Positions 1,307 through 7,300 of a stretch of 64,000 nucleotides of DNA are shown here, piece after piece. Position numbers and translations under genes: made by a program. Under the pieces are notes generated by a model. The model did not search any database and was not told the origin of the DNA. It was given only the letters and a program-made list of their open reading frames with translations. The stretch's first letter is position 1; each line of letters opens with the position of its first letter. The stretch is from Podarcis gaigeae. Taxonomy: Eukaryota. The stretch lies in assembly GCA_964106915.2 (NCBI GenBank), contig OZ066917.1; one strand, 5' to 3'.

Positions 1307-4300
1307 GTAATCATTATTTCCTTTTGAAACATTGCATTGTGCTATTATTTCAACTACCATCCATTGATTCCTGATTCAACAGTGGCATCTTCTCGAAAGT
1401 ACCCCTGCTCCTGCCAACAAGTCTTTATGTGTCAATAAGAGTCAGCAGCACTCCTCGTCCTGAAGTATTTACCTACAACAGCCACAACAAGGCTGACTTA
1501 AAACAAAGAAATGACTGAATTTGTGAGGTGCAGTAAGATGAGTCAGAAGTGAAATTCAGGTACTGTGTACATTGAAGATGTGAGAGACAATGGGAAAGTT
1601 TCCAAATGGGGTGAATATCCACAATATAATATAATAGGGAAATTTGGTGTCCCAATTTATTTGCTTTCCCACCCCAAATTAACAACCCCCAAATCCATCT
1701 CCATAGTTACAGGACTAGAAAACTGTTCAGTACTTGGCATTTGTTATTTGGGACTCAACATTGGGTATTCTGCCACCAGTAGTATTTAATAGTTTGCATC
1801 TAATAATGTAAAAAAAAAGAATTAGTACAGGATATTACATATACAATATCAGTTGTGGACCCACTTGCAGAGCCCCCAACTTTGAAGGGTGAAGCGAATA
1901 GCAATGGTGTGATGGAACAAACATGAAAAGACAACAGTCTGGAATTAAAAATTGGCCACAACTTTATTGATTACAGATATAGGTTAGGTTTTGACTCAGG
2001 CATTGGGTGTATATCTATTATCAGCCACCTGGTGGGAAGGATGAAGGTTAAGCATGGTCGTGCCTGGGATTTGGACCATGGCAACATGCAGGTCCACTGA
2101 TGGGGTCCATCCTTGACTGCTGCTGGAAGCTCTATGGCCCATTTGCCCCACACTTAGGGCAGAGACTTGCACTTAGCCCCCTCTAATGGAGTGCCCTGAA
2201 AGTACACCAGCTTTGCTTTGGGATGACTGAGCTGAGTGAAATACGTGCAGAAGGCCTTTATCCGGCCATCCAAAACAGCTGACCAGGGGAGGACCCAGTG
2301 GCTAGCTGCACCAAAAGGAATTTCGCATCCCAGGCATGGAGAGAGCACGCGACAGGCCGCAAGTGCTGCCCACCCCTCAGCAGCCATTCCTTCTAAGTTT
2401 GGCACATAGTAAAACTATCATTTGAAAATAGCTTGCACTTGAGAGGTTATATTCTGTGTAAATATTTCATACCTAGTGTGTTTTAGATTCAGAAATTGAA
2501 GTCCAAACTGGAATTCATTGTTATGGAAACCACTAATTGAAAATGCAGCTGTTCGTTGCACAGTCATCTAATTAGCATCAGCCTTACTGGCTAGACCTTA
2601 TGTTTAATTGGTAGGGGTGAATCAGGGTAAAATCAGGGCAAATTCTCACATTCCCAAGTTGGGCCGTGCAATTAACAAGGCATGTTAAATTGGAGCAGGG
2701 AGTCTCCAACCCAATTCTTTCTCCTTGTTCTTTTCCAAAAAAATAATGACACGTTATTCTTTTGTTTTTCCTTTCCTTTTCTGAAATAATATTCACTTTT
2801 GTTTTGGCTTTGCAGATTCAGGAATGTTTAGCACAAACAGTCCATTGACAACATCAGGTTAGTAAATACAAGTACAAATCATATAGCATTTTCTGAGAAA
2901 TGAAACCAAGCTGATTGGACAACCAGAGCTTGAGAGGGGATAAGATGTAGAAAAAAAGGAATTGGGTAGAGAGGTGGGGGATCTCTCATTTTGAAATCAC
3001 AGTGAATTATTTTTCAAGGCAGCTCTAGTAACAGTGCTTTAGGGTAGGGGTGTTGAAATAAAGAAACATAGTCCTTTATGAGAGTGGTCATTCTCTTCCA
3101 GTCTGTGAGACCAGTGTGTAAGTGGCAAAATTAGACTGTTGGGGCGATTTTCTTATTTCCTACTTGTTATTTTTTCCTAATGGATGGTTAGAAATTTGCG
3201 CTCTCTCTCGTGCGTGCGCTGTCTCTCTCTCTCTCTCTCTCTTATAAACTATATTTGCATTAGTCCATCATCACACTCTTTTCATTGTGTGTTTCCCAAG
3301 GTTCTAAAGGTGGGGCATAGAAAGGAGGAAGGGGCAAGAAGGAAAAGACACAATTGTGTCTGTAATAAATGACTTTGAGTGGTTAAGGGAAGGTATTGCT
3401 GAGGCAAGGAAGGGGAGAAGTGTTTCTCTCTGTGTGAAAGGTTCTCCACTGAGAGAGAAAAAATAGTAGTTTTAAACACTGAAAGAAATTTGAGTAAAGC
3501 AAAGGTAAAGAGACACTGAGGGAAATGGAGATTTTAAACAATGACTGAGGTTTGAATAAAGCAGGGATAGAGAGACACTGAGGAGTTAGTTTATAAAACA
3601 ACAACATTCAGTTTTAACAAGAATAAATAGCAGAGATGGGTCCAACAAAGAAGCTAACACCAAAAAGCAAGTGAATGAAAACAAACATAATTTCAATTCA
3701 TTTAGTTAATATGTTCTAAAGGTTATATCAGCCTAATTAAAAGGAAAATCTGTGAAAAATAATTGATGATCTCCAATGGCTAAACAATATGCCGTATTTT
3801 TCGCCCTATAGGAAGCACTTTTCCCCCTCCAAAAATGAAGGGGAAATGTGTGTGCGTCCTATGGGGCGAATGCAGGCTTTCGCTGAAGCCTGGAGAGCGA
3901 GAATAGGCTTCAGGAGAATCACTCTCCAGGCTTCATGAAGCAGCCTGCAGCCCACAAGCTCGGGGGATAGCGGGGAGGCGGAGCGCCACCACCCCGCTAT
4001 TCCCCGACCTGATCTGGAGGCTGGCGGGGGGAGGAGAAGCAAGCTTGCTTCTCCCCCCCCCCGCCAGCCCCACCAACTCGGGGGACAGCAGGGCAAGCCG
4101 CTGCCCCACGGAGGCTAGAGAGGATGTCCCTGAAAGCAGAAGAAGGAGACGGAGTGCTCTGTCTCCCTCTTCTAGCTTGGGGATGTCTGCGCAAACCTGG
4201 GGGGGGGATAAAAAAGTTTTCCTTGATTTCCCCCCCAAAAAACTAGGTGCATCCTATGGGCCGGTGCGTCCTATAGGGCGAAAAATACGGTACTCCCACA

Positions 4301-7300
4301 CTTTCCAATATCATTCTGACATGTTGCATTATCATCATCATCATCATTATTATTATTCTCCAGACACTCTGGGCAACTCTCAACAAATTGTTAAATACAC
4401 AACGAAGCATAAAACATAAAAAAAATTTCCATATACAGGGCTGCATTCAGATGCCTTCTAAAAGTTAAGTAGTTTTTTATTTCCTTGACATCTGATGGGA
4501 GGGCATTCCACAGGGTGAATTCCACTACTGAGAAGGTCCTCTGCCTGGTTCAACATCAGGTTAGTAAATACAAAGCGTATAATCTAATATTAAAAGAAAT
4601 CTAGACAAAGTCATTGATGAAGTGCAACAACCAAAGTAATATACTGCTCACATCATTTTCTACATTGTTGCATAAGGCTACAATACTGTGCTCATTTACT
4701 TGGGAGTAAGTCGCATTGAACTCAGTGGGGATTACTGCATAGGATTGTACTATCAAGCTTATAATATGAATGGAAGGAACATTTGCTTTATAAATAATTT
4801 TCTGTGTCCCCCCCCCCCCCAATGTTCTTTGTTTTTTGCTTTGAAGACTTCAGAACATTTGGTACAAGTCCTTTGACAACATCAGGTTAGTAGACAGAAA
4901 ATGGCAAGATATAGTGTTTTTGTATCAAAGATTCCAGGCATTTTTGTAATCAAGTAAATCATATGCTTTTCCACCCACAAGTTCCACACTGAGCCTGTGC
5001 AGATAAGGCTTTAAAAGGTTGTGTTCAAATTATGAGCAGCACTTTCTGCCACATTACACTAATATACATCTATTTCAGTAACCAGTGTCTGTACCAATTA
5101 GTGGATATTAGGAACAAGTAAGGAACATTTGTGCTTAAAAAGGTTGATGATTGGATATGCTTGTTATTCTGACTTGGAAAGAGAATCAGTAATGGAAGAA
5201 AGCACATTTTCTTTCCCCAGTAGATGGCATTGTGGTTTAGTTTTCTGAAGTTTAATTCCAAAAGGACTTAAACTTGTCCTTTATAAGCACAGTTTCTAAC
5301 GTCAATAAAACTCAAGTTCTTTGAGTTTTTGCAGACTACTACTGATTATTTTCACAGGATTTATTATGCCTTTACTTGAAGTATCTCAGAACTTATAATC
5401 AGTCTCTGACACTGGTAATATTGGGCTCACAGAATAGTATGAAGACACAAAGTTCTCTTAAGTGGATGGAGGGCTTGTAACTCGGAGGTAAAACTGATGC
5501 AGTTCTAGGTTCAATCCTTCACAACTAAAAATTTTAACCTCCTGATTGCTGCAGAACCAAACTGCTGTTAAAGGGACAGTTAGCAATCTTATTGGAAAGA
5601 CTCGAGTAGCACATCTGGGAGAAGAATGCATGTCTGTCTTTTGCTCCAGGTTTGTACACTGTAAAGTTTGCACTGGAAGTATAGAGAACACTGTCAATAC
5701 TGTATTTTGCATTGGGCATCCCAGACCACCCTTGCTATATTTATTTACTTATTTTAAAGCTTGATATGGAACTTAATATTTCAAAAATCTCTAATTGGTG
5801 CACAATCTAAACAACAAACTGTGTATGATCAAAGCAACTTTCTGAATAATGCCATCTTCCTTTTAAAAACTTATTTTAGTGAAATGCTTACCTCTTGATG
5901 AGCTTTGTGCTGATGGTGTAAGCTGCATAAGAAGAGAATCATTTTGTGATGGAATACCAAACTGCCCAGATGGTTCTGATGAAAATGAAAAAACATGTGG
6001 TAAGAATTTGAGTTCCTTCAATTAACCTCTGACCCTTTACAGAATCTCTCAACATCATGCAGTGTTGTGTGGAAGGTAATACAATATGTGGAAGGTAATA
6101 CAATATTATTTTTTTAACCCATCAGGGGAAAGAAATTCTTGCAAGTTACCAGTTTTTTAAATGAAAGAATAACGATAAAGAAATTATAGGTGAAATACTA
6201 CAGAAAAGCAATATTCTGACTACAAAAAGATTTATGCAATTAACCATGACTAGCTGTTTTATGCTATCTACAGTGTTGCTTTGAAACAAAGATCCAGCTT
6301 TCACTGCTCTAAATTCATATTGCATTCATATCCTCAGTCTGGTCTGGTTCCTTTCAGACAGAGGCTACAATAGAAAGAAATAGAAGTGAAAAGCCAAGCC
6401 TTGTATGTAAGATGAGATGGTCTCCCATGGAAGGCATCTTGGAGGCTATATGATAGCGTGTGGATCCACAGGAGAAAAGGAGGTGTCCAGTTGATGCCTC
6501 CATTTTACAAGCATGGAGGCCTCTGCTGCCCTTGCCACCCCACCATTGGTATTCTAGTTGTAGTATTGGCACAGATGAGGTGTTTTGGGTGGCAAATCGG
6601 GGATGGTTTTGGATCTGGCAGCTCCCAACCCTTTCTGTTCCCTTCGTGCCTCTCCAGAATGAAAGGGAAATTTGGATCTGGCATACTTCTTGTCTCAAAA
6701 CCCTAACACACCAAGTCAAAAGGTGTTCAATCCCTGGCATCTCCAGGTAAGGCTGGGAAAACATTTTTCCAGAAATCCTGGAGAGCCTGTCAGTCAGTGT
6801 AGCCAGTTCTGAACTAGTCTATGGTGGATAGTTGGGTTGTTTTCTTGAAATTGTATGATGACTGTTTGTGTTGATATTTCAATATCAGGAGGCCAACAAC
6901 AGATAAGGTGTGGAAATAAATTACATTCCAGCGGTTGGGACTTTAAGCACCAAACTAGTTAAGACATGGGAGACACATAAACAGTCTAGTGGTGGTGGTT
7001 ATTAGTTATTACTTGAATACAACCAGGGAAGGGCTAGAAATTTGAATGGGAGAGTGGTAGAAAGATGCTTGACTCACTGCAGATGATTTTCTCAGTCAAA
7101 ATCCCTCCTCCCACAACTGCTTTTCTGTTGTAAAATGATAGAGGGTCTCTTTTCCCCTTCTGGAAAAAAGCAGTTGAGATCAGGGTTTTTTAAACAAGCA
7201 AACCAACAAGAGTGGTCCAGTTGGACAGGGAATTACTGCTACTACTATTTGTAGTAGTATTTCTATCTGCTTCTTCAATCTTTGCACCTAACGCAGCTGG

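What the first reader, a model, noticed from the sequence alone, without database searches (positions are those of the whole stretch)
2816..5414. Tandem duplication of the TMPRSS15 Ser/Thr-rich micro-exon: two intact copies plus one or two dead ones
Seen: two phase 1-1 micro-exons (2816-2857, [14 protein letters not shown]; 4847-4885, [13 protein letters not shown]) share the end ttgacaacatcag|gttagta and similar acceptor tracts. A third donor half (caacatcag|gttagtaaataca, 4551-4572) matches copy 1 but its 5' part is replaced by an L2 fragment. A possible fourth eroded copy (5382-5414) has a stop in the required frame. Known, from recall: human has one short exon here, and this O-glycosylated linker between SEA and LDLa varies in length among mammals. 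Inference: birth and death of symmetrical micro-exons tunes the length of the mucin-like stalk, possibly with alternative splicing.
Basis: partly seen in the sequence, partly recalled or inferred. Interest (0 to 1): 0.72.

Follow-up and report, generated by a model that had tools for sequence, protein, structure and literature searches.

The report
Repeated micro-exons in enteropeptidase linker
Two short duplicated exons in a lizard's enteropeptidase gene encode a serine/threonine-rich linker that likely carries sugar chains and likely helps send the enzyme to the gut surface; relatives' gene models already contain both, and the number of such units varies from species to species.

Summary
The two micro-exons are real. 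2816-2857 and 4847-4885 are open phase 1-1 exons of TMPRSS15, 100% identical to a Podarcis RefSeq protein, and they share intron sequence, so they arose by DNA duplication. The pair is old, not specific to this lizard. Two or more units occur in 21 of 27 lizard and snake (episquamate) species examined, mostly in the same order. The 'dead copies' are not established. The third is a 23-nt exact match that begins at a LINE's 5' break, with at most a weak flank hint. The fourth is borderline (p about 0.06-0.09). Gain, loss and skipping of units is supported across tetrapods: python 7, mouse 4, caecilian 4, birds 3-4. Whole-unit skipping is annotated in Anolis, Liasis, human, mouse, whales and quail, but in none of 20 lacertid or amphisbaenian records. 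Likely role: an O-glycosylated apical-sorting signal and spacer whose symmetric exons tolerate gain and loss. Adaptive length tuning is untested. An ordinary member of a known kind.

The parts
1155..1306 (+). TMPRSS15 exon, second half of the SEA domain; ends in phase 1
   Evidence: (96% to Podarcis muralis enteropeptidase)
2816..2857 (+). Micro-exon unit 1, 42 nt, phase 1-1, [14 protein letters not shown]
   Evidence: 100% to P. raffonei residues 163-176
2858..2931 (+). Intron start after unit 1, homologous in register to 4886-4959
   Evidence: 29 of 60 identical from +15 onward, p 0.0004 at fixed register, 0.002-0.003 allowing +-3 shifts
3792..4290 (.). High-copy element with 27-nt terminal inverted repeats (MITE-like; class name recalled)
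   Evidence: arms 3792-3818 and 4264-4290, 96% complementary; depth
4328..4550 (-). 5'-truncated LINE 3' end with (AAT/GAT)n tail; L2 label rests on a recalled ORF2 C-terminal motif
   Evidence: (39 other copies at 89-91% among 40 scored); no Pfam hit above cutoff
4551..4573 (+). 23-nt exact copy of 2849-2871 (last 9 exon bases plus 14 intron bases), abutting the LINE 5' break; not shown to be a former exon
   Evidence: unchanged in organisms B and C
4847..4885 (+). Micro-exon unit 2, 39 nt, phase 1-1, [13 protein letters not shown]
   Evidence: 100% to P. raffonei residues 177-189; no change in organisms B and C (low power)
5382..5414 (+). Possible decayed unit; stop in the phase-1 frame; homology borderline
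5880..5999 (+). TMPRSS15 exon, first LDL-receptor class A domain; phase 1-1
   Evidence: (best PDB hit enteropeptidase heavy chain, E 2e-08)

Best explanation
Two duplicated in-frame micro-exons of the lizard enteropeptidase gene encode a 27-residue Ser/Thr-rich linker between the SEA and first LDLa domains, which is likely O-glycosylated and likely serves as an apical-sorting signal and stiff spacer at the brush border. Shown: exon borders, phase, identity to annotated proteins, DNA-level paralogy including intron sequence. Inferred: the pair arose before lacertids, amphisbaenians, iguanians, anguimorphs and snakes split. Because each unit is a multiple of three and phase 1-1, duplication, loss or skipping never shifts the frame, so unit number likely drifts among lineages (0-7 in gene models) under loose constraint. 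The 23-nt third block is most likely a short patch copied from unit 1 at about the time of the LINE insertion, not the remains of a working exon.
For: Gene identity: 23 tblastn pieces at 80% or more on the + strand cover residues 112-1029 of the P. raffonei protein; three more exons lie upstream. Both units are present in 10 of 10 lacertid and 10 of 10 Rhineura records that carry the SEA exon. 13 of the 27 linker residues are S/T. Intron homology between the copies. Same-order orthology scores better in 13 of 15 informative species pairs, with 6 ties from Elgaria's identical units; the pairs are not independent. Isoforms differ by exact whole units in Anolis X1/X3, whales X1/X2, Cyrtonyx X1/X4/X5, human (0, 1 or 2 units), curated mouse NP_032967/NP_849186 (4 and 3), and hamsters. 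12 Liasis records give 11 distinct subsets of one six-unit order. Logan-only proteins on 3.4-4.7 kb contigs, likely transcript assemblies, carry 2-3 units. A human construct of residues 182-1019 was purified as a zymogen and used for structures (PMC9663175 passages); it lacks the unit at 166-177, so the linker is likely not catalytic. [quoted passage not shown]
Against: O-glycosylation and sorting were not tested for the lizard units; they are carried over from mammals, and the key paper was seen only as a title. Most comparative sequences are gene models, which miss or mis-map micro-exons: several linkers are clearly intron read-through, and models of one species disagree for Varanus and Pogona. 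Some models have no unit at all (human X2/X6, Tupaia, Microcebus, Octodon, Heterocephalus, Tiliqua), which argues against a strict requirement. Crossed orthology scored better in 2 of 15 pairs, both involving Podarcis. One test hints that the third block has older downstream homology to copy 1. Exon-intron structure outside this genome was inferred from proteins, not read from DNA.
Confidence: 0.72

Rival explanations
1. Adaptive length tuning: selection sets unit number and splicing so that the protease sits at the right height in the glycocalyx, or is shielded from pancreatic proteases, according to diet or gut physiology.
For: Independent expansions of near-identical units in Python (7), Liasis (6 inferred), caecilian (4), murids and cricetids (3-4); combinatorial skipping annotated in several lineages.
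Against: No diet or function correlation was tested. Close relatives differ freely (rat has three A-like units and no B; Arvicanthis models have one), as expected from drift. No skipping in 20 lacertid and Rhineura records.
Confidence: 0.22
2. Recent birth and death in this lizard lineage: the intron once held three or four exons; a LINE insertion with target-site deletion killed the third, and the fourth decayed.
For: Exact 23-nt block with a donor identical to copy 1. Weak downstream similarity 27/60 and a weak match left of the LINE (p about 0.03). 5382-5414 is the best of 81 non-self candidates and reads [11 protein letters not shown] in another frame. Three units in Notechis and Crotalus show that a third exon is plausible.
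Against: Perfect identity over 23 nt, including 8 bases beyond +6, does not fit flanks decayed to near chance. The block starts exactly at the LINE break. The other flank tests are not significant. The two live copies are old.
Confidence: 0.3
3. The third block is a 23-bp target-site duplication flanking a 1.7-kb insertion (2872-4550, LINE with 3' transduction).
For: The two 23-mers are exact direct repeats and one abuts the LINE 5' end.
Against: 2872 onward is homologous to the intron after unit 2, so it is original sequence. No source locus for 2872-3790: the other 45 matches are 69-83% pieces of an old repeat at query 365-799. No poly(A)-type tail at 2872.
Confidence: 0.05

Closest known systems
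Mammalian enteropeptidase mucin-like domain (Zheng & Sadler 2002, title seen in reference lists; the A and B repeat names and 27-residue length are recalled)
   Same: Same gene, same position between SEA and LDLa1, Ser/Thr-rich. Human, cattle, pig and whale records have a 15+12 residue pair with unit-skipping isoforms; the lizard pair is 14+13.
   Different: The lacertid and Rhineura units both score higher against the 15-residue mammalian unit than against the 12-residue one (mixed for Anolis, python, gecko), so one-to-one orthology with the mammalian pair is not shown. No skipping is annotated in lacertids.
CD46 (membrane cofactor protein) STP exons (PMC2118878, abstract read)
   Same: Short alternatively spliced Ser/Thr/Pro-rich segment of 15 residues, site of heavy O-glycosylation, in a membrane protein ectodomain.
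   Different: Unrelated gene, juxtamembrane in a type I protein; splicing shown by cDNA, whereas here it is only annotated in relatives. An analogy, not homology.
Tandem duplication of symmetric exons (general mechanism, recalled)
   Same: Phase 1-1 exons with length a multiple of three, with homologous intron flanks.
   Different: Both copies are included together in all lacertid models; they are not mutually exclusive.

Membership tests
Enteropeptidase / TMPRSS15 | Domain order SEA, LDLa, CUB, MAM, CUB, LDLa, SRCR, trypsin | tested here: met
   Pfam on the P. raffonei protein, whose residues 112-1029 map exon by exon to the window
Enteropeptidase mucin-like linker | Ser/Thr-rich short repeats between SEA and LDLa1 | tested here: met
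   13 S/T of 27 residues, positions 163-189
Enteropeptidase mucin-like linker | O-glycosylation and apical targeting activity | not testable with these tools
   Only the title of the mammalian study was seen; paper not held
Tandemly duplicated symmetric exon | Same phase at both ends, length a multiple of three, open frame | tested here: met
Tandemly duplicated symmetric exon | DNA homology extending into intron flanks | tested here: met
   downstream 29/60, p 0.0004; acceptor side, confounded by polypyrimidine content
Alternatively spliced STP-type cassette | Transcripts of this species with and without a unit | tested here: inconclusive
   0 of 20 lacertid and Rhineura records skip a unit; Anolis, Liasis, birds and mammals do
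Dead (pseudo)exon, 4551-4573 | Remains of acceptor or 5' exon and homologous flanks | tested here: inconclusive
   one weak positive among many negative tests
Dead (pseudo)exon, 5382-5414 | Similarity to live units above chance | tested here: inconclusive
   p 0.086; 28 of 478 controls; rank 1 of 81, with 3 of those 81 in this intron interval
L2 LINE, 4328-4550 | High-copy 5'-truncated element with simple-repeat tail | tested here: met
L2 LINE, 4328-4550 | L2-clade reverse transcriptase in longer copies | tested here: inconclusive
   No Pfam family above cutoff in 3 frames from two longer copies; clade label is from a recalled motif

The most novel reading that the evidence does not exclude
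The enteropeptidase linker is a tetrapod-wide accordion of phase-1 micro-exons, expanded independently many times (python 7, Liasis 6, caecilian 4, mouse 4, birds 3-4) and spliced combinatorially, and unit number is a selected dial for apical delivery or reach of the enzyme that starts protein digestion. This intron, with a half copy and an eroded copy, would record that turnover in progress.
Probability: 0.2. Interest if true: 0.55.

Novelty: new member of a known kind. Interest (0 to 1): 0.28.

Why it matters
The two exons themselves add little: they are already in RefSeq models of close relatives, and the mammalian mucin-like domain has a published role. The by-product is more useful. Across tetrapods the linker varies from 0 to 7 units by whole-unit steps, which gives a natural series for testing how many O-glycosylated repeats an apical sorting signal needs and whether large-meal feeders such as pythons use a longer linker. 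Ten library searches listed no paper on this comparative pattern, but the library lacks most subscription journals, including the classic enteropeptidase cloning papers.

Tried and rejected
No RNA holder was listed for the stretch, so junction reads could not be tested; this is no evidence either way. Both read-laying runs used contigs only; runs of organism A may be the window's source and were not counted as support. Conservation of unit 2 in organisms B and C (no change in 39 nt) has little power: flanks show 16-24 substitutions in about 1,350 nt, so under one change is expected. Target-site duplication with transduction was rejected. A 24-nt match left of the LINE looked strong when anchored after the fact (p 0.003) but fell to 12 of 388 in a fair test; no match left of the MITE. 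Pfam did not confirm the LINE clade. Unit orthology to the mammalian pair was mixed. Kitamoto 1994, the Zheng 2009 review and Zheng & Sadler 2002 were not held. PMC5187769 passages held nothing on the linker. No earlier scan findings were found. No structure prediction was run: a 27-residue disordered linker would not be informative. Supplements were not read.
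Full report
Setting. The window lies in a 1.51-Gb genome. The exon at 1155-1306 is 96% identical to Podarcis muralis and 90% to Zootoca enteropeptidase. The P. raffonei protein maps exon by exon along the window from residue 112 to 1029, three upstream exons lie in the adjacent 10 kb, and Pfam gives the enteropeptidase domain set. The source is therefore a lacertid close to Podarcis; I did not try to identify it further.

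The two live exons. 2816-2857 (42 nt) and 4847-4885 (39 nt) have AG/GT borders, are open in phase 1-1, and sit between a phase-1 SEA donor and a phase-1 LDLa acceptor. They match residues 163-176 and 177-189 of the P. raffonei protein at 100%. All 10 lacertid records and all 10 Rhineura records that carry the SEA exon include both units; two further Podarcis models start at the Met inside unit 1 and include unit 2. The copies share 30 aligned bases and a 20-nt exact block. Their introns stay homologous in register for 60 nt beyond +14 (29/60, p 0.0004), so the duplication happened at DNA level.

Age. From I counted by eye 27 episquamate species; 21 have two or more units in at least one model. 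The six others are Ophiophagus and Protobothrops (one unit), Phrynocephalus and Naja (read-through text), Pituophis (not parsed) and Crotalus horridus (fragment). None of six gecko, skink or cordylid species has two units in its models. Among seven two-unit species, unit 1 matches unit 1 and unit 2 matches unit 2 better than crosswise in 13 pairs, worse in 2 (both with Podarcis), with 6 ties from Elgaria (pairs not independent). The pair likely dates to the episquamate stem or earlier. Whether it equals the mammalian pair is not shown: lacertid and Rhineura units both lean to the 15-residue mammalian unit, other lizards give mixed scores.

Turnover and splicing elsewhere. Python has 7 near-identical units. 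Twelve Liasis records give 11 distinct strings, all subsets of one six-unit order (subset check by eye; near-identical exons can also produce false isoforms). Notechis and Crotalus tigris have 3. Birds have 3-4, the caecilian Rhinatrema 4 identical units, salamanders probably 2. Curated mouse isoforms have 4 and 3 units; rat has three A-like units. Anolis X3/X5 skip exactly unit 2; whale, cattle, hamster and quail isoforms skip whole units. In the clean linkers the units start with D, G, A, V or E, the residues whose codons begin with G, as expected for phase-1 exons ending in G (seen by eye; a few exceptions are likely model errors). These are protein records: the exon structure outside this genome is inferred.

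Third block. 4551-4573 equals 2849-2871 over 23 nt, and its 16-nt core is found only three times in the genome (the reversed control pattern gave 5 scattered matches, so three within 2 kb is not chance). It starts exactly where a high-copy element ends: 39 other copies at 89-91% among 40 scored; none of 11 copies inspected continues with the exon-like sequence, and 10 continue with element sequence. The minus strand encodes a LINE-type C-terminal peptide and a simple-repeat tail; the L2 label is from recall and Pfam gave no support. Evidence for a former whole exon is weak: left of the LINE the best match is reached by 12 of 388 controls, and downstream only 1 of 6 ungapped tests reached p<0.05 and gapped tests did not. 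Perfect identity beside near-random flanks fits a short patch copied from unit 1 better than an old dead exon (inference; about 60 to 30). A target-site duplication around 2872-4550 is unlikely, because 2872 onward is original intron and has no source locus. Organisms B and C carry the block unchanged.

Fourth candidate. 5382-5414 has a TAA in the phase-1 frame, unchanged in B and C; C has one other substitution at 5401. Similarity to unit 2 is borderline: p 0.086 against shuffles, 28 of 478 control windows, best of 81 non-self AG..G/GT candidates, 3 of which lie in this interval. In another frame it reads [11 protein letters not shown]. It may be a decayed copy; this is not shown.

Function. 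The linker has 13 S/T in 27 residues. PMC9663175 (passages) reports that a human construct of residues 182-1019 was purified as a zymogen and calls the SEA domain dispensable for activity; that construct lacks the unit at 166-177. PMC10191478 (passages) says the precursor is sorted to the apical membrane and cites Zheng & Sadler 2002, whose title assigns apical targeting to the mucin-like domain (title also in PMC9598255). I could not read that paper; its A/B repeat detail is recall. PMC11667166 (passages) notes that O-glycans take part in apical targeting of some membrane proteins. The likely mechanism is an O-glycosylated sorting signal and spacer, with symmetric exons making copy changes harmless to the frame. 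Models with no unit at all argue that the requirement is loose or that models miss the exons. Adaptive length tuning remains possible but untested.

Comparison and novelty. The closest system is the mammalian enteropeptidase mucin-like domain; the closest analogue is the CD46 STP exon set (PMC2118878 abstract). The lizard exons are already in public gene models. Ten searches (listings seen) showed no paper on the comparative turnover, within a library that lacks the classic cloning papers. Verdict: real, old and ordinary locally; modest interest for the tetrapod-wide series. Interest 0.28.

Noticed in passing
window 2816-2822: A second AG 6 nt into unit 1 would give an in-frame 36-nt exon (2822-2857), two residues shorter. 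Not seen in the records examined.
   Followed up: partly
window 4533-4559 and 4536-4559: AGs inside the antisense LINE fragment with the donor at 4559 would give in-frame 27- or 24-nt chimeric exons (GPLPGSTS), but the acceptors are pyrimidine-poor and no record includes them.
   Followed up: partly
window 2845-2864 and 4873-4892: The two old copies share a 20-nt exact block including third codon positions and the unusual donor GTTAGT; within-species unit identity is 9 residues in Podarcis and Rhineura and 14 in Elgaria, against 3-5 in Anolis, Pogona and Varanus. Possible gene conversion or splice-signal constraint.
   Followed up: partly
proteins P0022, P0028 (Podarcis isoform X3): 864-residue models begin at the Met inside unit 1 and lack the membrane anchor and SEA; short Anolis and Paroedura models also begin in this region. 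Possible internal promoter or model artefact.
   Followed up: no
window 3792-4290: High-copy element with 27-nt terminal inverted repeats and several internal hairpins.
   Followed up: no
window about 3236-3670: Old dispersed repeat, 45 other matches at 69-83%, with a 61-nt internal duplication at 3461-3583.
   Followed up: partly
proteins P0064-P0150, P0205-P0231 (birds): Many bird models fill the linker with recurring non-Ser/Thr text, likely intron read-through where micro-exons were missed.
   Followed up: no
protein P0225: A 57-residue protein labelled Verrucomicrobiales bacterium sits in the passerine enteropeptidase cluster; likely contamination or mis-clustering.
   Followed up: no
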